Shown here: positions 2,464 to 64,000 of the stretch, piece by piece
Layout: every line of letters starts with the position of its first letter
How positions within the stretch are numbered: position 1 is the stretch's first letter
Assembly (NCBI RefSeq): GCF_006345805.1
Contig: NC_043010.1
Location: 9,052,001-9,116,000 of the forward strand
Source of the DNA: Octopus sinensis
Lineage: Eukaryota
DNA: 64,000 nucleotides
Direction: 5' to 3'
Translations under genes and position numbers: made by a program
Notes under the pieces: model-generated
Databases searched by the model: none
What the model was told of the DNA's origin: nothing
The model's input: only the letters and a program-made list of their open reading frames with translations

Positions 2464-2732
2464 ATGTGTGTGTGTGTGTGTGTGTGTGACTGTGTATGCA
2501 CATATCAATATTTTGTCATGTGCATGTGCACACATGCATCAATATTTTGATGCGTGTGTATGTGTCTCTATATTTGAGAAGATTCTGGTTTAATATATGT
2601 GTGTGTGTGTGTGTTGTATGCATTTCTGCATGTTTCTATGCTTGTGCATACGTGTATTTATGCATGCGTGTGTGCAGTGATAAATGTGTATGTGTTGTGT
2701 TAGCCTGTGTATATGTGCATACTCTCTCTCAT

Positions 2733-2934
2733 TACTCTTTTACTTGTTTCAGTCATTTGACTGCGGCCATGCAGGAGCACCGCCTTTAGTCGAGCAAATC
2801 GACCCCGGGACTTCTCCTTTGTAAGCCCAGTACTTATTCTATCGGTCTCTTTTGCCGAACCGCTAAGTGACGGGGACGTAAACACACCAGCATCGGTTGT
2901 CAAGAAATGCTAGGGGAACAAACACACACACAAA

Positions 2935-2971
<37 letters not shown>

Positions 2972-3140
2972 CATATATACGACAGGCTTCTTTCAGTTTC
3001 CGTCTACCAAATCCACTCACAAGGCATTGGTCGGGCCGGGGCTATTGCAGAAGACACTTGCCCAAGATGCCATGCAGTGGGACTGAACCGGGAATCATGT
3101 GGTTGGTTAGCAAGCTACTTACCACACAGCCACTCCTGCG
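2733..3140 (-). mobile_element. SINE family A copy
   Basis: Reverse complement of 2055-2463. Confidence 0.92.
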
Positions 3141-3154
3141 TATGTATATATATT

Positions 3155-14348: not shown

Positions 14349-15789
14349 TAAACTACTTTTACTAAAAATATAATTCTAAATAAAAAGTGTAAACATTGAT
14401 ATTTATTCCAATAATTCTTTAAAAAAAAATACGTAAAAATGAAAAAAAAATTGAATTTCTATTCATCATTGGTCATCAAAGATAGTAGACACGATAAGTT
14501 AAAAACAATGAAAATCTTGAAATTCTCCATAATTTGGTAGAATTTATCTTGATTCACTTGAGTAACATGAAGTTTTCATATATATCGATGATATTTTCTT
14601 CCAAAACCAAAAATATCTTCATTCCAATCATAAGAAAAGCCTCTTAGCCTATGTTTTCATATATATTTATATATATATATAATATATATATATATATATA
14701 CATTTGAGCGTTTATTCATTTTTTTAGCTTTAGCACAAGATTGAAGAAATATCAGATAAAAATGAAGATGATTTTATAAAATATATTCACACACACACAT
14801 ACATACATACACTTACATATACATTTACATCTATATTTACACACTTATAAGTAACATCATTTTAAAATGTTATTTCATACACAGATACACGCATACAAAC
14901 ATATATTCATGTGCGTGCACGCACCCACGCACACACATACACACGTGTATGTACAGGCACACACACTCATGCGGACAAGGATAACCATTTTAATACGGAA
15001 TGAAGGAATAATAATACTTTTAGAGACCTATAACTACTTAAAAGTCGGAATTAGGAAAGACTGGAAAATTGTCCTAAGAAGAAATATGAAATTATAGTTC
15101 AACTCATATTTAAAAAAGAACTTGAAACAAAACAAAAAAAACCCTGGTAGCTTATTTGATTGATTTTCAAAGTCAGACGGTTGAAGTCATTGTATAACAA
15201 ATGTTTGGTGTGGCATTTAAATATATAAATCAAGCTAGACAGTCAAAGATCAACAGGAAGAGCATTTCAATATCTAACATGAAATAAGAGAAAGCTTCAA
15301 CACATCATGTCTGTTGATGTTGGTGGTTAGTGTAGTCTAGAGTTTAATATAATGAAGGTTAGAAACAGTTACAGAGCAGTGCCACAAATATATTTATAAA
15401 TCATTAGTCAAAGTTTTAAATATTATTCTGTGATCAATATTGAGGAAATTGAAGTGTTACACAGTAAATTTCAACACTTTTACAACTGTTGATCTAAATG
15501 AACATATGAAAGATTGCAGCATTCTCAGCTCATAAATTATTGATGCATAATCTTAGAAGCAAAAAAGCAAATACTAATAGGTATCTAATGTAGTTGCAGA
15601 CATGACTATATGATCAACGAGTTTGCTTTGCAGTCGTGTGATTTTGAGTTCAGTCCCACTGCTCAGCATCTTGGACAAATATTTTTTTACTATAGCTTTG
15701 GGTAGATCAATTTCTTGTGAGTGAATCTTGATGGAAACTGTAGGAAGCATATTATGTAGGAATGTATGTGTGTGTAAATGTGTATGACA

Positions 15790-16281
15790 TGTAATGACAT
15801 GCATAAGATCTGGTCATCAAATCTAAGTAGAGACTTCAAACTTGAAATCTTCAAAGCCTCAGTCAAACCAATTCTACTATATGGCTCAGAAACCTGGACG
15901 TTATCAAAGAAGCTTGAGAGGCGGTTGGATGGAACCTACACTCACCTCCTTATGAGAGCTCAAAATCTCTCGTGGAAGTGTCATCCAACCAAAGTACAAA
16001 TATATGGGAAACTACCACCTGTGTCATCTCTTGTGAAAGGTAGGAGAGTCCAGTTTGCTGGACATTGTTGTAGAGCTGAAAAAGAGGTAATTTCTACTCT
16101 TCTCCTCTGGAAGCCATCTACTCGCAATACCAGAGGGCCGCACACTCTCCTACCCAGATATAATCTCCAGGGATACAGGCATCCAAAACAGGACCTCGGT
16201 AATGCTATGATGGACCGTGAAGTCTGGTGTAGCATGGTAAATTCCATTGTCTTGACCACGGTTGAACAATAATGATGATGA
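15790..16281 (+). mobile_element. 5'-truncated RTE-clade LINE, ORF2 C-terminus (frameshifted) with (ATG)n tail
   Basis: PILLYGSETWTL...RRVQFAGHC...DREVW motifs typical of the RTE-clade RT C-terminus; second copy at 31966-32360. Confidence 0.9.
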
Positions 16282-17949: not shown

Positions 17950-18137
17950 ACCATATATATATATATATATAGTTGGAATTAACAGAAAAACAAAAGACAA
18001 AGACAGGTATATAAACAACAAACAGGTGTATTACTTTAACACTTACGAAGGTGAGAAATATATATATATGTATATGTATGCATGTATATATGTATATATT
18101 CAAAATGTATGCATGTATATATGTATACATTCAAAAT

Positions 18138-18332
18138 GTGACTGCGTGTGTACCGTTGGCGATTTTTTCCTCTGTCTTCCCTTCTCTAGATCTTTCCTTC
18201 TTCTATGTTTCTGACGAAGAGCTCCGCTCGAAACGTTAAACCCTCCTTCTTTCCTTCTTTCCTGAGCGTCCAATAATACTATATTTGTTCCACGTCCTTG
18301 CGTTGTGTTTTTTTGTGCTTTCTTCTTTGGAT

Positions 18333-18340
<8 letters not shown>
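18138..18340 (+). mobile_element. (TA)n-anchored short element with hammerhead motif (PLE pLTR/retrozyme-like)
   Basis: Homologous to 51870-52065, 54672-54865 and 56326-56532; ends in gattaac(TA)n. Confidence 0.75.
18207..18241 (+). ncRNA. Minimal type-I hammerhead ribozyme motif
   Basis: gttt-CTGACGA-a-gagc(tcc)gctc-GAAAC-GTT-aaac: stem I gttt/aaac, stem II gagc/gctc, palindromic stem III; activity untested. Confidence 0.7.
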
Positions 18341-18369
<29 letters not shown>

Positions 18370-24944: not shown

Positions 24945-25748
24945 CCATCATTTAACGTCCGCTTTTCATGCTAGCATAGGTTGGACGATTTGACTGAGGA
25001 CTGGCGAACCACATGGCTGCACCAGGCTCCAATCTGATCTGGCAGAGTTTCTACAGCTGGATGCCCTTCCTAACGCCAACCACTCCGAGAGTGTAGTGGA
25101 TGCTTTTTACATGCCACTGGCACAAGGGCCAGTCAGGCAGTACTGGCAACGGCCACGCTCAAATGGTATTTTTTACATGCCACCTGCACAGGAGCCAGTC
25201 CAGTGGCGCTGGCGATGACCTCGCTGTAATGTTTTTTCATGTGTCACCAGCACAAGTGTCAGTAAAGTGATGCTGGTAATGATCACGCTCAAATGGAGCA
25301 TTTTACGTGCCACCAGCACTGGCAACGATCACGCTCGGATGGTGCTCTTAGTACTCCACTAGCATGGATGCCAGTCATCAAATTTGATTCCGATTTCGAT
25401 TTCACTTGCCTCAACAGGTCTTCACAAGCAGAGTTTAGTGTCCAGTGAAGAAAAGGTATGCATTAGTGGGCTGGTTACACCCCTGGCATAGGCCATGGGT
25501 TATGGTTTCACTTGGTTTGCCGGGTCTTCTCAAGCACAGCATATTTCCAAAGGTCTCAGTCACTAGTCATTGCGTCGGTGAGGCCTAATGTTCGAAGGTC
25601 GTGCTTCACCACCTCAACTCAGGTCACCCTGGGTCAACCTCTTCCACTGGTTCCCTCGACTGCTAGGGTGTGGCACTTTTACACACAGCTCTCCTCATCC
25701 AGTCTTGCCACATGACCATACCAGTGCAATCGTCTCTCTTGCACACCA
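24912..25748 (-). mobile_element. 5'-truncated RTE LINE: decayed ORF2 end plus long 3' UTR (source of family C tails)
   Basis: Minus strand 25748-25600 reads VQERRLHWYGHVARLDEESCV*KCHTLAVEGTSGRG*PRVT*VEVVKHD (RTE RRLxWxGHVxR...GRGRP motif), followed by the family C 3' end and (GAT)n. Confidence 0.88.
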
Positions 25749-27662: not shown

Positions 27663-28683
27663 TATTACCTCCACTTTAGCAAAGGCAGAGGTATTGCTTT
27701 CAGTTGTGTTTGTTTGTTTTTGTTTGTCTGTCCGTGGACAAGATATCTCAAGAACCGCTAGATGGATTCAGATGAAACTTTCAGAGATGTTTGGCCTCAT
27801 GTCTGGCATGAACTGATTAGATTTTGGGGTCAATCTGGCACTGGACAAGGATTCTGATTATTTGTTACATTTACTTTACATACTCTTTACTCTTTTACTC
27901 TTTTACTTGTTTCAGTCATTTGACTGCAGCCATGCTGGAGCACCGCCTTTAGTCGAGCAAATCGACCCCGGAACTTATTCTTTGTAAGCCCAGTACTTAT
28001 TCTATCGGTCTCTTTTGCCGAACCGCTACGTGACGGGGACGTAAACACACCAGCATCGGTTGTCAGGCAATGCTAGGGGGACAAACACAGACACACAAAC
28101 ACACACACACACATATATATATATACATATATACGACAGGCTTCTTTCAGTTTCCATCTACCAAATCCACTCACAAGGCACTGGTCGACCCGGGGCTATA
28201 GCAGAAGACACTTGCCCAAGATGCCACGCAGTGGGACTGAACCCGGAACCATAAGGTTGGTTAGCAAGCTACTTACCACACACCCACTCCTGCGCCTGAT
28301 TACGATCTTACATCAACTTTCAAGTTTTTCTCAATTATGTCCCTTTAGGTTGTTAACTACTTTGAATGGTGAATTTGCTAACCTTGGCTTGTATTAGATA
28401 AGGATAAACTATTTATTATAGTCACTAAATTTTCAACAGTCACCTTCACATTCCATGACTACCATTGGGATCAATCAGGTACCAGACAAGGATTCTAGAT
28501 TATTTTTCCATTTATTTTACTTAATTTTTGAGAGCAGTCGGGTTCACTTTTAGTAATCTCGTTCGTGAGAGCTATTGAGTTTGTTTCAGATATTCTTATT
28601 TTAAAAAATCATCTCTGGCTAATTGTTGAGAAGGCTTCGGTGTTGCCTTGGTAGAGGTTGGTGCTCTACTGAGTGCTTTTGTT
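27663..28683 (+). mobile_element. Helentron-associated HINE/DINE-1-like element, interrupted by later insertions
   Basis: 5' tattacctcc...gaggtattg, (gttt/gtct) microsatellite, 3' gccttggtagaggt plus small hairpin gtgctctactgagtgc; the ggatcaatc..gacaaggattc segment occurs twice. Confidence 0.65.
27882..28296 (-). mobile_element. SINE family A copy
   Basis: Full length, ends ...cactcctgcgcc. Confidence 0.92.
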
Positions 28684-31965: not shown

Positions 31966-32360
31966 CATCATCATTGTTCGACCGTGGTCGAGACAATGGA
32001 ATTTACCATGCTACGCCAGACTTCACGGTCCATCATGGCATTACGGAGGTCCTGTTGCTGGATGCCTGTATCCCTGGAGATTACATCAGGGTAGGAGAGT
32101 GTGCGCCCTCTGGTATTGCGAGTAGATGGCTTCCAGAGGAGAAGAGTAGAAATTACTTCTTTTTCAGCTCTACAACAATGTCCAGCAAACTGGACTCTCC
32201 CACCTTTCACAAGAGATGACACAGGTGGTAGTTTCCCATATATTTGCATTTTGGTTGGATGGCGTTTCCACGAGAGATTTTGAGCTCTCATAAGGAGGCG
32301 AGTGTAGGTTCCATCCAACCGCCTCTCAAGCTTGAACCAATTCTACTATATGGCTCAGAA
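31966..32360 (-). mobile_element. 5'-truncated RTE-clade LINE with short 5' inversion and 11-bp TSD
   Basis: ORF 31971-32318 homologous to 15790-16281; TSD accctcttttt at 31955-31965 and 32361-32371. Confidence 0.9.
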
Positions 32361-33325: not shown

Positions 33326-33568
33326 ACGAAAGAGTGCTGAAAAAGTTCCTGGTTTTGGATAAAAAGAAATACAAGAGTATCAGGTTTATTATGATTTTAT
33401 TCACCATTGGCTGTGTGGTAAGTAGCTTGCTTACCAACCACATGGTTCTGGGTTCAGTCCCACTGTGTGGCATCTTGGGCAAGTGTCTTCTGCTATAGCC
33501 CCGGGCCGACCAATGCCTTGTGAGTGGATTTGGTAGACGGAAACTGAAAGAAGCCTGTCGTATATATG

Positions 33569-33605
<37 letters not shown>

Positions 33606-33958
33606 TTGTGTGTCTGTGTTTGTCCCCCTAGCATTGCTTGACAACCGATGCTGGTGTGTTTACGTCCCCGTCACTTAGCAGTTCGGCAAAAGAGACCGAT
33701 AGAATAAGTACTGGGCTTACAAAGAATAAGTCCCGGGGTCGATTTGCTCGACTAAAGGCGGTGCTCCAGCATGGCCGCAGTAAAATGACTGAAACAAGTA
33801 AAAGAGTAAAGAGAGTATATTCTCCTCTTAGATTCACACACTTATTGCAGCAATCCTTCAGTTTTTCTAAGTCCTGTAAAAGAACTCGGAAGGGTGGGCC
33901 TCTAACCAGGCCTTTCATGACACCCTTAAAACCAGGAACTTTTCAATACACTCTCATA
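33326..33958 (-). mobile_element. Mariner-derived non-autonomous element split by a SINE
   Basis: TIR-like ends gagtgctgaaaaagttcctggtttt / aaaaccaggaacttttcaatacactc; minus strand LEKLKDCCNKCVNLRGEY resembles the mariner C-terminal KCxxxxGxY. Confidence 0.75.
33408..33816 (+). mobile_element. SINE family A copy
   Basis: Near full-length match to 50754-51166. Confidence 0.92.
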
Positions 33959-34038
33959 TACATAATATACAGATAAGTTATGCCTAGCGTGACATTTGAT
34001 GCTATAGTTACTTTCGTGTGATAGTATATTGCAGGTAT

Positions 34039-34459
34039 ACTCTTTACTCTTTTACTCTTTTACTTGTTTCAGTCATTTGACTGCGGCCATGCTGGAGCAC
34101 CGCCTTTAGTCGAGCAAATCGACCCCGGGACTTATTCTTTGTAAGCCCAGTACTTATTCTATCGGTCTCTTTTGCCGAACCGCTAAGTTACGGGAACGTA
34201 AACACATTAGCATTGGTTGTCAAGCAATGCTAGAGGGACAAACACAGACACACAAACACATACACACACACACACATATATATATATACATATATACGAC
34301 AGGCTTCTTTCAGTTTCCATCTACCAAATCCACTCACAAGGCATTGGTCGGCCCGGGGCTATAGCAGAAGACACTTGCCCAAGATGCCACGCAGTGGGAC
34401 TGAACCCGGAACCATGTGGTTGGTTAGCAAGCTACTTACCACACAGCCACTCCTGCGCC
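34039..34459 (-). mobile_element. SINE family A copy
   Basis: Full-length reverse copy. Confidence 0.92.
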
Positions 34460-37375: not shown

Positions 37376-38072
37376 ATACTCTTTTACTTGTTTCAGTCAT
37401 TTGACTGCAGCCATGCTGGAGCACCACCTTTAGTCGAGCATATCGACCCCAGGATTTATTCTTTGTGAGCCTAATACTTATTCTATCGGTCTCTTTTGCC
37501 CAAACCACTAACTTACGGGGACGTAAACACACCAGCATCAGTTGTCAAGAGATGTTAGGGGGACAAACACAGACACACAAACATATACACACACATACAT
37601 ATATATATCCGGTGGCATGTAAAAAGCACCATCTGATGGTGGCCGTTACCAGCCCCGCCTGGCCCCCATGCCGGTGGCACGTAAAAAGCACCATCCCATC
37701 ATGGCCGTTTGCCAGCCTCGTCTGGCACCTGTGCTGGTGGCACGTAAAAAGCACCCACTACATTCACAGAGTGGTTGGCGTTAGGAAGGGCATCCAGCTG
37801 TAGAAACACTGCCTGATCAGACTGGGCCTGGTGCAGCTTTCTGTCTTCCCAGACCCCAGTTGAACCGTCCAACCCATGCTAGCATGGAAAGTGGACGCTA
37901 AACGATGATGATATATTCGCCGGGCTTCTTTCAGTTTCCGTCTACCAAATTCACTCTTAAGGATTTGGTCGGCCCAAGACTATAGTAGAAGACACTTGCC
38001 CAAAGTGCAACCCAGTGGGACTGAACCTGGGACCATGTGGTTGGTAAGTAAGCTACTTACCACACAGCCACT
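37376..38072 (-). mobile_element. SINE family A with family C RTE tail (37608-37911, +) nested in its internal microsatellite
   Basis: Family A tail 37376-37607 resumes at 37915 after the RTE tail. Confidence 0.85.
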
Positions 38073-38897: not shown

Positions 38898-38994
38898 TGT
38901 AAACATTTGGTTGTCTTTATCACTCTTCAAGCTCTTTCCAATTACTATAGATTATTTGATATGCTCCCATCCTAACTTGAAGACAGCTTTCTCC

Positions 38995-39425
38995 CTTTTA
39001 CTCTTTTACTCTTTTACTTGTTTCAGTCATTTTGACTGTGGCCATGCTGGAGCACCACCTTTAGGTCGAGCAAATCGACCCCAGTACTTATTCTTTGGAA
39101 GCCTAGTGCTTATTCTATCAGTCTCTTTTGCTGAACCGCTAGGTTACAGGGACGTAGACACACCAGCATCGGTTGTCAAGCGATGTTGGGGGAGGGGGGA
39201 CAAATACAGACACACAAACATATGTGTAAAACACACATACACACATATATATTTATATACATATATACGACGGGCTTCTTTCAGTTTCCGTCTACCAAAT
39301 CCACTCACAAGGCTTTGGGCAGCCCGAGGCCATAGTAGAAGACACTTGCCCAAGGTGCCATGCAGTGGGACTGAACCCGGAACCATGTGGTTCATAAGCA
39401 AGTTACTTACCACACAGCCACTCCT
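38995..39425 (-). mobile_element. SINE family A copy
   Basis: Full-length reverse copy. Confidence 0.9.
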
Positions 39426-40210
39426 ACTCCTATATGGCCACTACTATGCCTATATCTCTGTTCATTTCTCTCAAAGGTTACCACGTTAGGAGACTTTAGG
39501 GTACACAACACCTCTTTGCTCTTTTACCTCGTTTTACATCCTAGCATTTTACAAGTTTGAACACTCTATGCTAATGATGCCTGGTATTCTTTGTTATTCT
39601 CAAACATTACATTCCAAAGCAAGCAATTTTCCTTGTCAAACTCCCTCCCAGCCTCATCCATCTCTTTCTGAAGAAGGCCATCGCATTCTTTGAAAACATG
39701 TTACTGCGAGTCCTTTTACCTTAAATGGACAATCTCTCTGACCCTACAAACTAATAGCTTACATGTATAATTCTTAACACACATGCATATGTGCATATAA
39801 ATAGGTGTGTGTGGGTGCATATAAATAGGTGTGTGGGAGTGCATATACATAGGTAGGTGTGTGTGTGTGTGTGTGTGCACATGTGTGTGTGTGCACATAT
39901 GTGTGTGTGCACATGTGTGTGTGTGTGTATGTGCGTGTGTGCGTGTGTGTGTGTGTGTAAAGAATGATATGTCAGAGGAAAATGCATGACATAAAGTAAT
40001 AAAGTATATAAAAATAAATAATTAAAAAATATATAAATGTATTCAATTTCTGAGATTACTATTTTATATGACAAGATACTCCAGTAAAATATTTTGCATT
40101 AAAAAATCCATGCATGTATTCACGCACACACACATCCACATGCACACACACACACACATACATTTATACATATTATCTATCTATATTTTATATATATATA
40201 TATATAAGAT

Positions 40211-46750: not shown

Positions 46751-47379
46751 TATATTTATATTTATATTATTATATATCATATCTACATCTATCTTTCTAT
46801 CTATCTATATACACACGCACATGCGCAAACACATATACATTCACACAGCTATTCTATGATTAAAAGCTTCATAACTACACCAAAATTTTGCTTATAGCAA
46901 TCAACAGTTGTATGCAAGAATTCACTGTATGCTACTCTGATACTGTAATTTGAAATTCCTTTTGGAAACTCATATAGAATACAGACTGATTATCTAGGTT
47001 TGTCAATTTTGAAATTTTGTCAAATTCAATCATATGTGTGTGAGTTTATGATGCTCTTCATAATGGGTCTGCTGAATCTTTTTATCTTGTATTTCCAAGA
47101 TGCTAAAAGCAACTTCTTAAATGTTTCGTATTTGTTGAAAATCCGTTTTGGTATTTAAATATTTATGATGTTTATTGAAATTCATTCGTGTGAAATTGCT
47201 TTCAGAATTGCATAAGTTGTTATTTCTGTTAGCTTGACTATATTTCTTGCTATTACATATGTTTTTCTTTCTTTTTATTTTGTGTGTGTGTGTGTATTTA
47301 GTTTTTGACGATTTCTATTAAATAGTTTCTTGTAGCAGCTGTTGATCAAGAACCGTTAAGTATTTAAGCCTTAGACTGT

Positions 47380-47709
47380 CTTCCGTGCTGGTGGCACGTA
47401 AAAAGCACCATCCGAATCGTGGCCGATGCCAGTGCCGCCTCGACTGGCTTCTGTGCCGGTGGCACATAAAATGCACCAATCCGATTGTGGCCGTTGCCAG
47501 CGTCGCCTGGCACCTGTGCAGGTGGCACGTAAAAAGCACCCTCTACACTCACAGAGTGGTTGGCGTTAGGAAGGGCCTCCAGCTGTAGAAACACTGCCAG
47601 ATCAGACTGGAGCCTGGTGCAGCCTTCTGGCTTCCCAGATCCCCGGTCGAACCATCCAACCCATGCTAGCATGGAGAACGGACGTTAAACGATGATGATG
47701 ATGATGATG
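47380..47709 (+). mobile_element. RTE LINE 3' UTR (family C) with 3 internal repeat units
   Basis: ggtggcacgtaaaaagcacc units, then standard tail and (GAT)n. Confidence 0.88.
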
Positions 47710-47786
47710 AAACTTTCAGCTATATTGGCATTAATGTTTAACCTTTTACTAATCAGATTACTCTGTCAAATATAAAAGATTAAAAG

Positions 47787-48125
47787 GGTAAAGACCCCAC
47801 TTCAGTCATGAATGATCATAGAATTGCACCTTGAAAGTTACTCTCTGAAGCATAAGTCTAGACAAGTCTGTTTATGGAACACCAGAAGTCACCATGCATG
47901 CCAGCCTCCCCTCTCCACATCATCAATGTTATCCAAGGGAAAGGCAAAGGCCAATACAGCTTGGCACCAGTGATGTTGCAACACATTTCTACAGCTGAGT
48001 GAACTGGAGCAACATGAAATAAAGAGTCTTGCTCAAGAACACAACACCCAGCCCAGTTCAGGAATCAAACCCACTACCTTATGATTGTGAGCTCAACACT
48101 CTAACCACTGATCCACGTGTCTTCC
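47787..48125 (-). mobile_element. tRNA-derived SINE, family D
   Basis: tcagtggttagagtg head and cttgagcaagac core on minus strand; homolog 54884-55212. Confidence 0.8.
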
Positions 48126-48393
48126 GTCAAGCATAATGTTTGTTTATTTATTTTGTTTTGAATTAATCCTCATCTCATAGCTTTGAGATTTCAATGATGC
48201 GACTGATTAGTTTTAGAATGACATTATAGGATTGAGACGGCCAGTTTCAACATAAAACAGGCTAATTGTTTCAGCTGGATATGGACGAGAAGATCATACT
48301 AGTTGATACTTTTAATATCTTTTTTTGATGGCATTCAGTAGATATTTAACTAATCTTTATGCTTACTTGCTGCTTGTACACTATTATAGTATA

Positions 48394-48698
48394 GGAGGCG
48401 CAATGGCCCAGTGGTTAGGGCAGCGGACTCACGGTTGTAGGATCGCGGTTTCGATTCCCAGACCGGGCGTTGTGAGTGTTTATTGAGCAAAAACACCTAA
48501 AGCTCCACGAAGCTCCAGCAGGGGATGGTGGTGATCCCTGCTGTACTCTTTCACCACAACTTTCTCTCACTCTTACTTCCTGTTTCTGTTGTACCTGTAT
48601 TTCAAAGGGCCGGCCTTGTCACTCTCTATGTCATGCTGAATATCCCCGAGAACTACGTTAAGGGTACACGTGTCTGTGGAGTGCTCAGCCACTTACAC
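48394..48698 (+). mobile_element. SINE family E, 3'-truncated
   Basis: ggaggcgcaatggcccagtggttagggcagcggactc head; matches 17571-17949. Confidence 0.9.
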
Positions 48699-48727
48699 TT
48701 GCTTTCCTATATGGTTTACGATTATTA

Positions 48728-49157
48728 ACTCTTTAACTCTTTTAACTCTTTTACTTGTTTCAGTCATTTGACTGCGGCCATGCTGGAGCACTGCCTTTAG
48801 TCGAGCAAATCGACCCCGGGACTTATTCTTTGTAAGCCCAGTACTTATTCTATCGGTCTCTTTTTGCCGAACCGCTAAGTGACGGGGACGTAAACACACC
48901 AGCATCGGTTATCAAGCAATGCTAGGGGGACAAACACAGACACACAAATACACACACACATACATATATATATATATGCATACATATATACGACAGGCTT
49001 CTTTTAGTTTCCGTCTACCTACCAAATCCACTCACAAGGCATTGGTCGGCCCGGGGCTATAGCAGAAGACACTTGCCCAAGGTGCCACGCAGTGGGGCTG
49101 AACCCGGAACCATGTGGTTGGTTAGCAAGCTACTTACCACACAGCTACTCCTGCGCC
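48728..49157 (-). mobile_element. SINE family A copy
   Basis: Full-length reverse copy. Confidence 0.92.
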
Positions 49158-49595
49158 TATGTATGAAATTTTTGTTTGCTTTCCTATATGGTTTACGATT
49201 ATGTATATTTTTGTTGAGTGTGAATTCTAAGAAATCAACTGTGTTCATATTCACGGCTATTTTTATTTTAAAAGTGAAATTATTGAAAATGCTAATCTAG
49301 TCTTTTCTACTCTTTTTTTTGAAAAAAAATTGTCTAGCTGTTGGAATGTTGTGGTAAGAATAACTGATCATCTCCATATAGCTTTATATTTTCTATGATA
49401 AAAAATACAAAAATATATTCAAGAATTTAGATGTAGAAATATCTATTCTTATCTTTAGCAAACTAAATACTGTCATTACCATGAATGACAAAGAAATGAT
49501 GTTTGCAGTGAAATAGTCTGAAGTTTATACGAGGTGTTGTTGGATCAGGTAGCCGTCATTGTTTCTTTGAATTAGTTATGATGAGTTGCTGTCTT

Positions 49596-50003
49596 TGTCA
49601 TCATCGGCATCATCAACATCATCATCATCGTCATCGTCATCATCATCACCATCGTCGTCATCATCATCGTCGTCATCATCACCATCGTCGTCATCATCAT
49701 CGTCGTCATCATCATCATCATCGTCGTCGTCGTCATCACCATCGTCGTCATCATCATCGTTGTCATCTTCACCATCGTCGTCATCATCATCGTCGTCATC
49801 ATCATTGTCGTCATCATCATCATCATCATCATCACCATCGTCGTCATCATCATCATTATCATCATCACCATCACCATCGTCGTCATCACCATGGTCGTCA
49901 TCATCATCGTCGTCATCATCATCATCGTCATCATCATTATCATCATCGTTGTCATCATCGTTGTCATCGTCGTCGTCGTCATCATCATCATCATCATCAT
50001 TCA
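49596..50003. repeat. (TCA/TCG)n trinucleotide microsatellite
   Basis: Direct reading; source of poly-Asp/Ser/His pseudo-ORFs. Confidence 0.96.
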
Positions 50004-50317
50004 TTGTCGTTGTGATTCACAGTTTTGGTGTTATGACCTCACTCGGGTCTGCTTGCTGGTTCACTGCTACTGTCTGCTGTGTAGTGGCTAAAATTCACTG
50101 GATATCTAATGGCGCTCTTGGTCAGAAAAATCATGAAATTGTTATTAGTTTCAATTCCACCAGAAGTCTTGAATGGTTAGATATTTAGATGGCATTGGTG
50201 GTATTTGAGTGAATTGTGATCATGTTCTTAAATTTGTTTTTCTTTTGGCATTAGATATTGTGATCCAGGTTTGATGCCTAAGTTTTGCAATAGATAAACG
50301 TTCCTTCTACATATCTA

Positions 50318-50548
50318 TCATCATCATCATCATTTAACGTCCGCTTTCCATGCTAGCATGGGTTGGATGATTTGACTGAGGACTGGCGAACCAGATGGCT
50401 GCACCAGGCTCCAGTCTTGATCTGGCAGAGTTTCTACAGCTGGATGACCTTCCTAACGCCAACCACTCCTAGAGTATAGTGGGTGCTTTTTATGTGCCAA
50501 CGGCATGAGGGTCAGTCAGGCGGTACTGGCAACGGTCATGGAAAATGG
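50318..50548 (-). mobile_element. RTE LINE 3' end (family C)
   Basis: (ATC)n-tttaacgtccgctttccatgctagc...cttcctaacgcc. Confidence 0.85.
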
Positions 50549-50753
50549 TGTTTTTTTTTTCTATATTTGTGAATTTATTCAGGTTGTTGAAGCTGATAGG
50601 ATCAGACACCAAGTATTCTCATGCTGACATCAAATGCATCATTAGAGTTTGCTTTATTTGTACCTGGGTATGTTTCTGTTGAAAAGAAATATTTTCCTGT
50701 CATTCATAGAGGCTTTTAAGACATAGCCATTTAGGATACATATCCTAATATTT

Positions 50754-51166
50754 GGCGCAGGAGTGGCTGTGTGGTAAGTAGCTTGCTTACCAACCACATG
50801 GTTCCGGGTTCAGTCCCACTGCGTGGCATCTTGGGCAAGTGTCTTCTGCTATAGCCTCGGACTGACCAAAGCCTTGTGAGTGGATTTGGCAGACGGAAAC
50901 TGAAAGAAGTCTGTCGTATATATGTATATATATATATATATGTATGTGTGCATGTTTATGTGTCTGTGTTTGTCCCTCTAGCATTGCTTGACAACTGATG
51001 CTGGTGTGTTTACATCCCCGTCACTTAGCGGTTTGGCAAAAGAGGCCGATAGAATAAGTACTGGGCTTACAAAGAATAAGTCCCGGGGTCGATTTGCTCG
51101 ACTAAAGGCGGTGCTCCAGCATGGCCGCAGTCAAATGACTGAAACAAGTAAAAGAGTAAAAGAGTA
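50754..51166 (+). mobile_element. SINE family A, full length
   Basis: ggcgcaggagtggctgtgtgg...gtaaaagagtaaaagagt. Confidence 0.93.
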
Positions 51167-51722
51167 AAAAAGTTATAATTTCCCCTATAATGGTAATAAA
51201 TATTTCAATTGGTTGCATAAAATTGAAGAAATCAAGTCACTCTTCACACACTTTCTTTTGTTGTCACATTTTTAACAACTGATTACAGCACAGCAATTTT
51301 TCCATTAGAAGAGGTAAATGACATTCTTACTTCTATCATTAACATTATTTCAAATGTGTTTGCTAATTAATCCAATCACATTCTTAGTGCAGTTGACTAA
51401 TCGGCTTTCTAGATTAGAGGCCAAATACTCAGGTTGTTCATGTAAGAAATCTAATAAGATTTTCAAATTCATAGATAAATCAAAAAAAAAAAAAACGAAA
51501 GAAAAAAAGAAAAAGTGTAATAGAAAAAGGCATACGATGAACTCTTAGACAATTATCTAAATTTGAGTCAATGTAACTTCATAATAAGAATAGGGATGCA
51601 AAAATGATAGAAACACAAACTGCACATGACAGTAAACTTACTTTTAGCATGATAACACTTGAAATTTAATATGCACACACACACACAGAAAGACATACAC
51701 ATGTATGCATATACATACATGT

Positions 51723-51753
<31 letters not shown>

Positions 51754-52070
51754 CATACATACATACATACATACATACATACATACATACATACATACAT
51801 ACAAACATACATACATACATACATATTATATATACATACATACATATATATATATATACATATATGTAAACCACGTGTGAATTATTGGTTATTTTCTTCC
51901 TCCGTCTTCCCTTTTTTTGGACTTTCCTCTATTTGTGAAGAAGAGCTTTGCCCCAAATGTTAAATCCTCTTTCTTTCCTATCCTGAGTGTCTGATAATAT
52001 ATTACTTGTACCACGTCCTCAAGTTGTTTTTTCATGTTTGTTCTTCTTTAATTGGATTCACTATACATAT

Positions 52071-54413: not shown

Positions 54414-54608
54414 GATATTGTTATATTTCGGAATGGTCATATTGCCAGTTTAGCCAATAAAAACACACGCACTATATATTTATATATAAATAAGATTAAG
54501 ATTAATGTAAAAAATAAATATCACTGAAGCAAAATAACACCAAATATATAGTGCGTGTGTTTTTATTGGCTAAACTGGCAATATGACCATTCCGAAATAT
54601 AACAATAT
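54414..54608. repeat. ~67-bp perfect inverted repeat with ~60-nt spacer
   Basis: atattgttatatttcggaatggtcatattgccagtttagccaataaaaacacacgcactatatattt mirrored exactly. Confidence 0.93.
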
Positions 54609-54671: not shown

Positions 54672-54677
<6 letters not shown>

Positions 54678-54865
54678 ATGCAAATATGAACAAAGAGAAA
54701 ACACAACAACGCAAAGATGTGGAACAAGTATAGTTTTATTGGATGCTCAGGAAAAGAAAGAAGGAGGATTTAACACTTTGAGCGGAACTCTTCGTCAAAA
54801 ACATAGAAACATAGAAAAATAAAAGGTCCAAGGAAGGGAAGATGGAGAAAGAAAATCGCCAATGA
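54672..54865 (-). mobile_element. (TA)n-anchored hammerhead-family element (decayed core)
   Basis: tttaacactttgagcggaactcttcgtcaaaaacat is the reverse complement of the 18207 motif with substitutions. Confidence 0.7.
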
Positions 54866-54883
54866 TTATATATATAGATAATG

Positions 54884-56325: not shown

Positions 56326-56527
56326 TAGTTAATCTAAACAAAAAAGCACAAAAAACACAACAACGCGAGGACGTGGAACAAATATGGTATTATTATACGC
56401 TCAGGAAAGAAGGAAAGAAGGAGGGTTTAACGTTTTGAGTGGAGCTCTTCGCCGGAAACATAGGAGAAGGAAAGATCCAGAGAAGGGAAGACAGAGGAAA
56501 AATAATCGCCAACGGTACACACGCAGT

Positions 56528-56532
<5 letters not shown>
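56326..56532 (-). mobile_element. (TA)n-anchored hammerhead-family element
   Basis: Reverse-complement homolog of 18138-18340. Confidence 0.78.
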
Positions 56533-56568
<36 letters not shown>

Positions 56569-57124
56569 GTGCATGTGTGTGTATATATATATATATGTAT
56601 ATACATGTATGTGAGTGTGTATGTACATGTGTTATCCCTTTGTCTTGCTTCAGTCAATCTAGGATTATAATTTTAGCCAAAAATTATGAGAAATATAATT
56701 TTGTATATAAAATATGAAAATTAGCAAGCTGCTGCATGAAATGCGTTCATGGACATTAACAAACCATTTATCTATGCTCCCCCCATCCACTCTTATGTAT
56801 ACTTAATCTACTTATTGTTTGTTCAAATTTCAAATCGCTTAGCGAATGGGCTTCCAGTCACTTACATGTGAGTGTGTAGTCTACTTGTTTTTATCGGTCA
56901 AATTTCAGCTTGTTATTTGAGTCTAACTTTCTTCAGAAAAATATACATTATTTAGTTTGTTCTTGTAGAAAGCTGATTGTATAAGAATAACCCACAGTAC
57001 ATACACAACATTTCCTAAATTTGTTTAAGATTATAATTGCGCTAGCAAATATTCTTTTGAGAGTGTAAGTCAAACCAGTAACAAAGAAGGGAATCTAAAT
57101 TTTAAGATAAAGATGGTTTTATAT

Positions 57125-57527
57125 CTCTTTTACTCTTTTACTTGTTTCAGTCATTTGACTGTGGCCATGCTGGAGCACCGCCTTTAGTCGAGCAAATCGA
57201 CCCCGGGACTTATTCTTTGTAAGCCCAGTACTTATTCTATCGGTCTCTTTTACCGAACTGCTAAGTGACGGGGACGTAAACACACCAGCATCGGTTGTCA
57301 AGAAATGCTAGGGGGACAAACACAGACACACAAACGCACACACATACATATATATATACATATATACGACAGGCTTCTTACATTTTCTGTCTACCAAATC
57401 CACTCACAAGGCATTGGTCGGCCCGAGGCTATAGCAGAAGACACTTGCCCAAGATGCCACGCAGTGGGACTGAACCCGGAACCATGTGGTTGGTTAGCAA
57501 GCTACTTACCACACAGCCACTCCTGCG
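57125..57527 (-). mobile_element. SINE family A copy
   Basis: Full-length reverse copy. Confidence 0.92.
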
Positions 57528-57628
57528 TATATGCATATATGGGTACAAGGCATCACCAACACTTCAAATAACAGGAACTATATATATAAATATATATATA
57601 TATGCATGTATATATATAAATACATGTA

Positions 57629-59607: not shown

Positions 59608-59612
<5 letters not shown>

Positions 59613-59765
59613 AGAGTTTACAAAAAAGACAAAAGACGAAGACAGGTGGTGTACAAAACAAACAGATGTATTAGTATACTCCCAGGAATAGAAAAGGTCT
59701 TTTACGTTTCGAGCCTACGCTCTTCTACAGAAAGGAACACAGAAAAAAACAAGGAGAGAAAAAAT
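59608..59765 (-). mobile_element. (TA)n-anchored element with CUGUAGA hammerhead variant
   Basis: Minus strand cttt-CTGTAGA-a-gagc(gtag)gctc-GAAAC-GTA-aaag; homolog at 63716-64000. Confidence 0.7.
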
Positions 59766-60509
59766 GTATATATATATATTATATATATATATATATAATA
59801 TATATATATATTATATATATATAATATATATGTATATACATATACATATATATATACATATGTATAAAATAGAGTGATTGTCATACATGAGAGAGCATCA
59901 GAAAGTGAGGAATAGTGCTTGAGGAAAGATGATATTCAAATGAAAAATGCGTTCTTTTATGGGCCTGGGCTGATTAATGTATTGGAAATGAAAGTGGTAA
60001 ATGGAAACTGTGTGGAAGCCTGTCATGTGTGTATTTTTTCTGTCTGTATTTGACCCCCTACCCCCACTGGTTATCAGTTCAGGTAAAGGCTGAAATTATA
60101 ATTACCAGATTTTAAAAATCCATAAGTACAGAGGTCAATTTGTTCAACTAAAACTCTTCAAGGTGTTGGTCCAGTATGGAAACTGACCAATGACCGAAGC
60201 AAGCAAAAGATATAACATAAAAAAGAATATCTGGATTTTGAAGATTTTTTTACTTTCATTTTAGATTAATCTTGGATGTAGTTTCGTGTTTTTGTTACAG
60301 ACATTAACACATACAAGCACGCATTGTAATAAAATTCTTTTCTACTCTAGGCACAGGGCCTGAAATTTTGGGGGAGCGGGGCCAGTTGATTAGATCGACT
60401 CCAATACACAACTGGTACTTAATTTATCGACCTCAAATGGATGGAAGGCAAAGTCAACTTCAGCGGAATTTTAACTCAGAACATAAAAATCAAAATCGTA
60501 ATCTGTCAA

Positions 60510-61246
60510 CATCAATGGAATTTGTAGCTGTGATACCAGTGCCGGTGACACGTAAGAGAACCATCCAAACGTGGCCGTTGCCAGCGCTGCCCAACTGGCA
60601 TCCATGCCGGCGGCATGTAAAAAGCACCATCCGACCGTGGCCATTGCCAGCTTCGTCTGGTCCCCATGCTGGTGGCACGTAAAAAGCACCATCCGATCAT
60701 GGCCGTTTGCCAGCCTCGTCTGGCACCTGTGCAGGTGGCACATAAAAAGCACCATCCAATCATGGCCGTTTGCCAGCCTCGTCTGGCACCTGTGCAGGTG
60801 GCATGTAAAAAGCACCATCCGTTCATGTCCGTTTGCCAGCCTCGTCTGGCACCTGTGCTGGTGGCATGTAAAAAGCACCATCCGATCATGGCCGTTTGCC
60901 AGCCTCGTCTGGCACCTGTGCAGGTGGCATGTAAAAAGCACCATCCGATCATGGCCGTTTGCCAGCCTCGTCTGGCACCTGTGCTGGTGGCATGTAAAAA
61001 GCACCATCCGATCATGGCCGTTTGCCAGCCTCGTCTGGCACCTGTGCAGGTGGCATGTAAAAAGCACCCACTACACTCACAGAGTGGTTGGTGTTAGGAA
61101 GGGCATCCAGCTGTAGAAACACTGCCAGATCCGACTGGGCCTGGTGTAGCCTTCTGGCTTCCCAGACCCCAGTTGAACCGTCCAACCCATGCCAGCATGG
61201 AAAGCGGATGTTAAACAATGATGATGACGATGATGATGATGATGAT
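60510..61246 (+). mobile_element. RTE LINE 3' UTR (family C) with expanded 63-bp tandem array
   Basis: Units start at 60671, 60734, 60797, 60860, 60923, 60986 and 61049, with diverged units upstream; then standard tail and (GAT)n. Confidence 0.9.
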
Positions 61247-63682: not shown

Positions 63683-63715
63683 CGCATATCTATATCTATG
63701 TATATATATATATAA

Positions 63716-64000
63716 CGGGAAGCTTTATGAAAATAAACAAAAGACGAAGGCAGTGGAAAACAAACGAACAATTGTATTAGTATGGCGCTCAGGAAATATA
63801 AATAAAACAAGTCTTTAACGTTTCGAGCCTACGCTCTTCAACAGAAAGATACAGAGAGAGAGAAAAAACACAGAAAGAAGGAGAGAAAAAAAATGCGTGC
63901 AGTAGCTAACGAATCAACATGGCGATCTGATTTCGGCCAGAGGTCAAAGATCAAACATGAGACGCGAGAGCGAAATAAGGGGAGATAATAGGTTTTGATA
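63716..64000 (-). mobile_element. (TA)n-anchored PLE-like element with CUGUUGA hammerhead variant, running off the window
   Basis: Minus strand tcttt-CTGTTGA-a-gagc(gtag)gctc-GAAAC-GTT-aaaga. Confidence 0.7.

What the first reader, a model, noticed from the sequence alone, without database searches (positions are those of the whole stretch)
18138..18340. Dispersed family of ~200-bp (TA)n-anchored elements each carrying a minimal hammerhead ribozyme
Seen: at 18207-18241 the sequence has the hammerhead core CUGACGA and GAAAC, with stem I guuu/aaac, stem II gagc/gcuc, one extra A after the core, and a palindromic ACGU in place of stem III. Homologous ~200-bp elements recur at 51870-52065 (+), 54672-54865 (-) and 56326-56532 (-), each ending directly in (TA)n and with no ORF. 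Established: minimal type-I hammerheads lacking stem III are typical of Penelope-like element pseudo-LTRs and metazoan retrozymes and are thought to cleave as dimers. Inference: a high-copy non-autonomous, TA-targeting PLE/retrozyme system, possibly mobilised by a PLE like the relic at 46930-50750.
Basis: partly seen in the sequence, partly recalled or inferred. Interest (0 to 1): 0.75.

Follow-up and report, generated by a model that had tools for sequence, protein, structure and literature searches.

The report
Penelope retrotransposon end with altered hammerhead
The 200-base repeats are the end piece of a protein-coding jumping gene of a known kind (a Penelope-like element), at least 8,600 copies, carrying its usual stripped-down self-cutting RNA motif; the youngest copies have one core letter changed, and copies were likely made from uncut RNA.

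Summary
Partly confirmed. A minimal type I hammerhead fold lies at 18207-18241 in a 209-bp repeat ending in (TA)n, with at least 8,636 genomic copies. The other three window copies have broken cores. The repeat is not a stand-alone retrozyme. It is the terminal repeat (pLTR) of a Penelope-like element (PLE) with reverse transcriptase and C-terminal GIY-YIG endonuclease, Neptune/Nematis type: 16 of 20 endonuclease loci carry it downstream, and one locus shows pLTR-ORF-pLTR. The relic at 46930-50750 is not the partner. The younger subfamily reads CCGACGA (U4C). The window copy belongs to it, and its textbook core is likely a CpG back-mutation. 21 of 27 sampled copies start 198-215 nt from the 3' end; only five seen start at the cut site, so uncut RNA is the likely template. 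Eighteen composite copies, each with its own junction, suggest copying stops near that point and can jump. A sister PLE family has A6U with position 7 free. Cleavage and transcription are untested. The scan noted similar PLE ends and core variants before on other DNA. Verdict: new member of a known kind, modest interest.

The parts
18129..18337 (+). Solo pLTR (terminal repeat) of a C-terminal-endonuclease Penelope-like element, young subfamily B; starts ATTCAAAAT, ends GGATTAACT
18207..18241 (+). Minimal type I hammerhead: stem I 18207-10/18238-41, core 18211-17, extra A 18218, stem II 18219-22/18226-29, GAAA 18230-33, palindrome ACGU 18233-36; predicted cut between 18237 and 18238 (after GUU)
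18212..18212 (+). Core position 4: T here, C in 98 of 108 subfamily-B copies; likely C-to-T change at a CpG
18338..18369 (+). (TA)n target microsatellite at the 3' junction
18074..18139 (+). 31-bp tandem duplication that includes the element's first bases (ATTCAAAATGT occurs twice)
56327..56533 (-). Subfamily-B copy, core decayed (CCGGCGA, G12 lost)
54673..54866 (-). Subfamily-A (older) copy, core decayed
51870..52062 (+). Old copy, about 75% identical, hammerhead decayed; has T at position 4
63715..63950 (-). Copy of a sister PLE end (core CUGUUGA at 63844; stem I CUUU/AAAG); 5' limit approximate
59610..59766 (-). Second copy of the sister PLE end (core CUGUAGA at 59730)

Best explanation
The repeat is the hammerhead-bearing terminal repeat (pLTR) of an endonuclease-positive Penelope-like retrotransposon of Neptune/Nematis type, and the ~200-bp copies are likely dead-end products in which reverse transcription began at the pLTR/body border and stopped about 200-215 nt later, likely at the RNA's 5' end. 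Shown: the full unit of about 4.6 kb is a 5' body starting (T/A)TATATACCGC, an RT + GIY-YIG ORF, a CA-rich 3' UTR of 1-3 kb and this end; it occurs as pLTR-ORF-pLTR. Inferred, following Penelope and Poseidon_Ac biology: the RNA starts in the upstream pLTR near TCATTC; the endonuclease nicks (TA)n; the nicked end pairs with TATATA at the start of the body and primes copying; copying passes through the uncut hammerhead; most products are then sealed as solo pLTRs, and some jump to another point on the RNA, giving composite or long copies. The hammerhead would cut only as a dimer or with protein help. In the young subfamily it carries U4C, predicted to be slow, which did not stop amplification.
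For: 16 of 20 loci picked only by endonuclease similarity carry this end 0.95-2.8 kb downstream on the same strand (one of the 4 misses hits its contig end; two of the 20, L133 and L136, are near-duplicates). L134 is pLTR-ORF-pLTR. The ORF is 54% identical to 800-900-aa RT/GIY-YIG proteins and has the CX4CX2C linker and CCHH residues. 37 of 141 copies read TTATAT after GGATTAACT, out of phase with (TA)n and equal to the first body bases. 21 of 27 copies taken in genome order start 198-215 nt from the 3' end. Starts at the cut site: 15 + 4 pattern hits, 5 real of the 16 inspected, against at least 8,636 copies with the ribozyme. 18 of 30 loci with the 5' body are composites with different junctions and no resumption of the body; in 4 the downstream pLTR starts at 214-215 with body, not TA, upstream. 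Subfamily A has T4 in 26 of 28 and 5.9% divergence; B has C4 in 98 of 108 and 3.1%. Poseidon_Ac starts RT internally, and its hammerhead mutants still insert (PMC11167929, parts 1-2 of 4).
Against: No transcript start was mapped. The 5' cluster spans 198-217 with peaks at 208 and 214, so a polymerase pause or TA microhomology could make part of it. Six of 20 body-linked upstream pLTRs extend past the cluster (228-429 nt), so some templates reach further upstream. Composite copies could also be DNA-level deletions of full-length copies. In the 141-copy sample subfamily A has no long member, and short A copies are closer to each other than to long copies; the long copies were sought with B queries, and A-type ends linked to body or ORF were found later (L164 and tail loci). 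The translations printed for the ORF copies show frameshifts or stops. Neptune versus Nematis was not resolved.
Confidence: 0.8

Rival explanations
1. The short copies are ordinary 5'-truncated insertions copied from the 3' end of full-length RNA, and the 5' cluster is a pause or microhomology hot spot, not the RNA's start.
For: The main peak at 208 begins ATGTG, which can pair with a TA target. Long copies pass the point freely. Heavy 5' truncation is typical of PLEs (PMC8557442, passages).
Against: The 214-215 start also occurs joined to element body (4 composites). L165 and L166 carry 5' body sequence behind the pLTR and start at 214. The TT after the end matches the body start.
Confidence: 0.3
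2. The ~200-bp unit is a self-propagating non-autonomous element (SINE- or retrozyme-like): solo pLTRs are transcribed from their own promoter into flanking (TA)n and copied in trans by the PLE protein.
For: Short copies far outnumber long ones (1 of 27 sampled exceeds 235 nt). A solo pLTR in (TA)n recreates the TTAACT-TATATA priming context. pLTRs acting in trans were proposed in rotifers (PMC3846280, passages). Column 8 differs between short and long copies.
Against: No head-to-tail arrays: the close pairs fetched are separate insertions or duplications with flanks. Short B copies match long B ends up to 99.5%. The same A/B split occurs in body-linked copies.
Confidence: 0.12
3. The hammerhead is a decaying vestige under no selection; U4C simply killed it.
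For: U4C is near-fixed in the younger subfamily. Copies include the uncut site. The monomer does not favour the fold. U4C strongly lowers activity in vitro (PMC3088659, passage).
Against: Between sister families stems I and II, GAAA, the extra A and the palindrome are kept while loop II and flanks differ; the outer stem I pair is G-C, G-U or C-G (10 related sequences, one covarying pair only). In the sister family position 7, the free position, takes all four bases while its neighbours stay fixed. U4C keeps enough activity for viroid infectivity (PMC3088659, passage).
Confidence: 0.25

Closest known systems
Minimal type I hammerheads in pLTRs of metazoan PLEs (Cervera and De la Pena 2014, PMC4209133; read parts 1-2 of 4)
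   Same: No stem III, palindrome at 15.2-16.2, extra base between 9 and 10.1, G10.1-C11.1 pair, 4-bp stem I; mostly single dispersed motifs tied to truncated PLEs.
   Different: Core U4C in the dominant subfamily and A6U in a sister family (the parts read name only U3-A8 as a core change; figures and supplements not seen); stem II only 4 bp with a 3-nt loop; GUU triplet.
Neptune/Nematis EN+ PLEs (Craig et al. 2021, PMC8557442; passages and two supplement rows)
   Same: RT then C-terminal GIY-YIG, CX2-5CxxC linker, CCHH residues, hammerhead in the pLTR, partial tandem, microsatellite target.
   Different: Long CA-rich 3' UTR (1-3 kb); longer optional tail of 114-132 nt against 30-40 bp; clade not placed by a tree.
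Poseidon_Ac of the green anole (Frangieh et al. 2024, PMC11167929; read parts 1-2 of 4)
   Same: Internal start of reverse transcription at the pLTR/body border, two start sites, AT-rich target, uncut RNA as template.
   Different: There the start site is not homologous to the target; here the body begins with TATATA, matching the (TA)n target. There the ORF starts inside the hammerhead; here about 335 nt after the pLTR end in L134.
Animal non-LTR retrozymes (bioRxiv 10.64898/2026.07.22.740005, read part 1 of 5; PMC7229834, search listing only)
   Same: Type I hammerhead, no ORF in the short unit, PLE origin.
   Different: Retrozymes are tandem repeats with a ribozyme in each unit; these are dispersed solo ends of an ORF-bearing element.

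Membership tests
Minimal PLE hammerhead (min-HHR) | Core CUGANGA and GAAA | tested here: inconclusive
   Met in the window copy and subfamily A (T4 in 26 of 28); not met in subfamily B (C4 in 98 of 108)
Minimal PLE hammerhead (min-HHR) | Stems I and II, G10.1-C11.1, extra base after A9, palindrome in place of stem III | tested here: met
   97% of cells paired and one covarying pair across 10 related sequences
Minimal PLE hammerhead (min-HHR) | Located in the pLTR of a PLE | tested here: met
Minimal PLE hammerhead (min-HHR) | Self-cleavage as dimer | not testable with these tools
   needs bench assay
EN+ PLE, Neptune/Nematis type | Single ORF with RT and C-terminal GIY-YIG | tested here: met
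   (GIY-YIG E 0.005, below Pfam cut-off)
EN+ PLE, Neptune/Nematis type | CX2-5CxxC linker and CCHH residues | tested here: met
   CSRSRCNTC, CIKC, H..H; linker plus EN motif in 87 of 99 homologs
EN+ PLE, Neptune/Nematis type | Partial tandem forming pLTRs; optional tail | tested here: met
   L134, L164; tails ending at 114-132 nt in 7 of 30 loci
Neptune clade proper | RT phylogeny with named reference elements | not tested
   no named references among tool-given sequences; likeness to Neptune is recalled
Non-LTR retrozyme | Head-to-tail tandem units each with a hammerhead | tested here: not met
   11 loci with pairs or long copies examined, none a head-to-tail array of the 200-bp unit
Non-LTR retrozyme | No protein-coding form | tested here: not met
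   16 of 20 endonuclease loci carry the end
Non-LTR retrozyme | Circular RNA | not testable with these tools
   only contigs were available
Naiad PLE | N-terminal endonuclease, no canonical hammerhead | tested here: not met
   endonuclease is C-terminal

The most novel reading that the evidence does not exclude
The genome records a two-step copying cycle for PLEs, like the strong-stop of LTR elements: priming on TATATA at the pLTR/body border, run-off at the RNA start about 214 nt upstream, then a jump, with solo pLTRs as failed jumps and composites as mis-jumps. The hammerhead is kept under selection in a deliberately slowed form (U4C here, A6U in a sister lineage) so that it survives copying and acts only later or as a protein-gated switch.
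Probability: 0.3. Interest if true: 0.6.

Novelty: new member of a known kind. Interest (0 to 1): 0.33.

Why it matters
The kind is known, so the finding as written is ordinary. Two points add value. First, the role of PLE hammerheads is still open, and this family gives a natural pair: an older subfamily with the textbook core and a younger one with U4C and an otherwise near-identical ribozyme, ready for a direct cleavage and transposition comparison. Second, the fixed start of solo ends and the composite copies offer genomic tests of how PLEs finish reverse transcription, a step the one in-vitro study leaves unvalidated. It also warns that searches demanding CUGANGA miss more than half of such motifs here.

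Tried and rejected
Rfam at E<=1: no hammerhead among the 150 rows shown of 158, nearly all microsatellite-driven miRNA hits. Expression: no RNA holder listed; 22 runs, all contigs, none on record as RNA; four were laid and cannot show ends, strand or level. CpG decay alone as the source of CTGA was rejected for the family: in the first 100 of 8,636 matches, counted by hand, site 4 reads CG 56, TG 38, CA 6, while the other four CpG sites change 2-11% each way; it remains the likely cause for the window copy. Close direct pairs on C1 and C2 as pLTR-body-pLTR mini-elements: they are duplications with shared flanks or separate insertions. The relic at 46930-50750 as partner: no tblastn match to the family ORF at E<=0.01, best E 0.013 to its homologs. 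A test for more cut-site starts in subfamily A than B found 1 real of 4 hits against 4 real of 12 inspected of 15; too few to compare, no denominator or control position. An unbiased length distribution from 600 kb of evenly spaced DNA failed for lack of copies: 1 family copy, 154 nt. Pfam on broken pieces was weak. Luense et al. (RNA Biol 14:1499) is not held; known only from a review passage. Paper searches for octopus + Penelope + hammerhead, solo pLTR, template jump/strong-stop in PLEs (0 papers) and U4C/A6U cores found no description of this family or of these cores in PLEs; unseen figures and supplements of PMC4209133 and the Luense paper may hold them.

Full report
Observation. The motif is there as described. 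A descriptor scan finds GUUU-CUGACGA-A-GAGC-UCC-GCUC-GAAA-CG-UU^AAAC at 18207-18241. The strict form occurs once in the window and never in 60 simulated windows. BLAST finds the three other copies at 92, 79 and 73% identity, but their cores are broken. The element runs 18129-18337. Rfam lists no hammerhead among 150 rows shown of 158, and the monomer's lowest-energy fold is an alternative hairpin that keeps only stem II. That fits a ribozyme without stem III but is not support.

Family size. A 35-nt ribozyme pattern with its CpG sites left open has 8,636 matches in the 2.7-Gb genome G000 and none for the reversed control. Only one copy lay in 600 kb of evenly spaced DNA, against about two expected from that count, so the total is of order ten thousand and this window is a dense spot. 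The animal looks octopus-like (my recall of its repeats, and earlier notes; not tested).

What it belongs to. Copies extend 5' to varying lengths into a CA-rich non-coding stretch. In L062 this leads to a GIY-YIG endonuclease. Of 20 loci then chosen by endonuclease similarity alone (20 of 30 fetched), 16 carry the ribozyme end 0.95-2.8 kb downstream on the same strand; in 13 of the 14 readable ones position 4 is C. L134 has the full layout: upstream partial copy ending GGATTAACT, a body starting TTATATACCGCAC, ORF, 3' UTR, second end, (TA)n. The ORF is up to 54% identical to 800-900-aa proteins with RT and GIY-YIG domains and has YIDD, the CX4CX2C linker and CCHH residues. These are the marks given for Neptune and Nematis PLEs (PMC8557442, passages). 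No tree with named references was built. The relic at 46930-50750 does not match this ORF, has only 11 relatives at 72-81% over short pieces, and none carries this end within 1.5 kb. It looks like an old PLE of another clade (Naiad-like motifs, recalled, untested).

Two subfamilies. Exact 39-nt matches number 2,428 with CCGACGA and 590 with CTGACGA. In 141 collected copies (a biased set, chosen by likeness to the window copy, to long copies or by genome order) position 4 is linked to 17 other columns. Subfamily A has T4 in 26 of 28 and median divergence 5.9%; B has C4 in 98 of 108 and 3.1%. The old 51870 copy has T, so U4 is likely ancestral. The window copy has 8 of 8 B diagnostics, so its T is likely a CpG transition; T4 occurs in 9 of 108 B copies, near the rate at other CpGs. 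In contigs of four runs from four coded organisms, C makes 51-55% of depth at 18212. U4C is reported to lower activity considerably in vitro while still permitting viroid infectivity (PMC3088659, passage).

Is the fold selected? Within the family there is little variation to judge. A sister end, two copies of which lie in the window, has 6,888 pattern matches and follows a related endonuclease in 2 loci. It keeps stem II, GAAA, the extra A and ACGU, changes loop II, and turns the outer stem I pair from G-C to C-G. In its first 100 matches, counted by hand, position 6 is T in 98 and C in 2, never A, while position 7 takes all four bases. This is what selection on a hammerhead shape would give, but it rests on one covarying pair among related sequences.

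How the short copies arise. The 3' end is fixed; 108 of 141 are followed by TA repeats, and 37 read TTATAT, matching the first body bases and not the TA phase. So copying likely starts a few bases into the body, where TATATA can pair with a nicked (TA)n target. A second start lies near +120: 7 of 30 loci holding the 5' body end at 114-132 (the query was 119 nt long, which disfavours shorter tails). The 5' ends cluster: 21 of 27 copies taken in genome order on C1 start 198-215 nt from the end; this sample required the ribozyme, so copies under about 135 nt were excluded. Starts at the predicted cut are rare: 5 real among 16 inspected of 19 hits, plus one composite (L200). Thus the template is mostly uncut, as found for Poseidon_Ac, where RT starts internally and ribozyme mutants still insert (PMC11167929). 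Of the 30 body loci, 18 are composites: 175-965 nt of 5' body joined to a pLTR of 103-254 nt, each with its own junction, and the body does not resume (the script counted 19, I dropped L208, where a TA run separates the parts). In four the pLTR starts at 214-215 with no TA upstream, so that peak does not need target microhomology. The point lies at TCATTC, an initiator-like motif (consensus recalled), and a review states that PLE transcripts start in the upstream pLTR (PMC6765202, passage). I take run-off at the RNA start, followed by sealing or a jump, as most likely (about 60%); a pause site is the main rival. Against a single rule, 6 of 20 body-linked upstream pLTRs reach 228-429 nt, so longer or circular templates also exist.

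Comparison and novelty. It works like, and meets the tested features of, a minimal-hammerhead pLTR of a C-terminal-endonuclease PLE (PMC4209133). It fails two retrozyme features. Solo pLTRs are known (PMC3846280, passages). My searches found no paper on this family, on U4C or A6U cores in PLEs, or on a strong-stop jump in PLEs; figures and supplements of PMC4209133 and the Luense paper were not seen. Earlier notes of this scan report solo PLE ends with fixed starts, uncut templates, U4C and CUG-U-N-GA cores on other DNA; they are unchecked and not counted as support. Cleavage, expression and present activity are untested. Verdict: new member of a known kind, interest 0.33.

Noticed in passing
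window 63715-63950 (-) and 59610-59766 (-); L168-L182: Sister PLE end with hammerhead core CUG-U-N-GA (A6U, position 7 free); 6,888 pattern matches; follows a related endonuclease in L174 and L064.
   Followed up: partly
L007, about 30-70 nt upstream of the element, opposite strand: Another minimal hammerhead-like motif with CCGACGA core and GGAA loop in an unrelated repeat.
   Followed up: no
window 46930-50750 (-): Very decayed PLE-like RT relic broken by several short repeats and a (TCA)n tract; a different family from the one studied.
   Followed up: partly
window 2717-3142, 27880-28296, 34037-34459, 33565-33810, 38993-39430, 48750-49157, 50748-51171, 57115-57529: A ~460-bp repeat family with about eight copies on both strands and an internal CA/TA microsatellite.
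   Followed up: no
window 60605-61068, 37609-37755, 47374-47540, 25104-25319: 63-68-bp tandem units (AAAAAGCACC) inside a SINE-like repeat that ends in (GAT)n.
   Followed up: no
window 15778-16272 (+) and 31971-32342 (-): Two 97%-identical fragments coding for the C-terminus of a LINE-type RT protein.
   Followed up: no
window 54452-54571: Near-perfect inverted repeat of about 60-bp arms, MITE-like, beside the 54673 copy.
   Followed up: no
L006, L070, L071, L148: Pairs of this element in inverted orientation, either head-to-head or sharing one (TA)n tract.
   Followed up: no
L075, L077, L095, L097: A third variant of the end (CCTTGTTT before the core, different 5' part), also with C4.
   Followed up: no
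L087 (+) near 2323: A separate minimal hammerhead match with canonical core, 5-bp stem II and ATAT palindrome.
   Followed up: no
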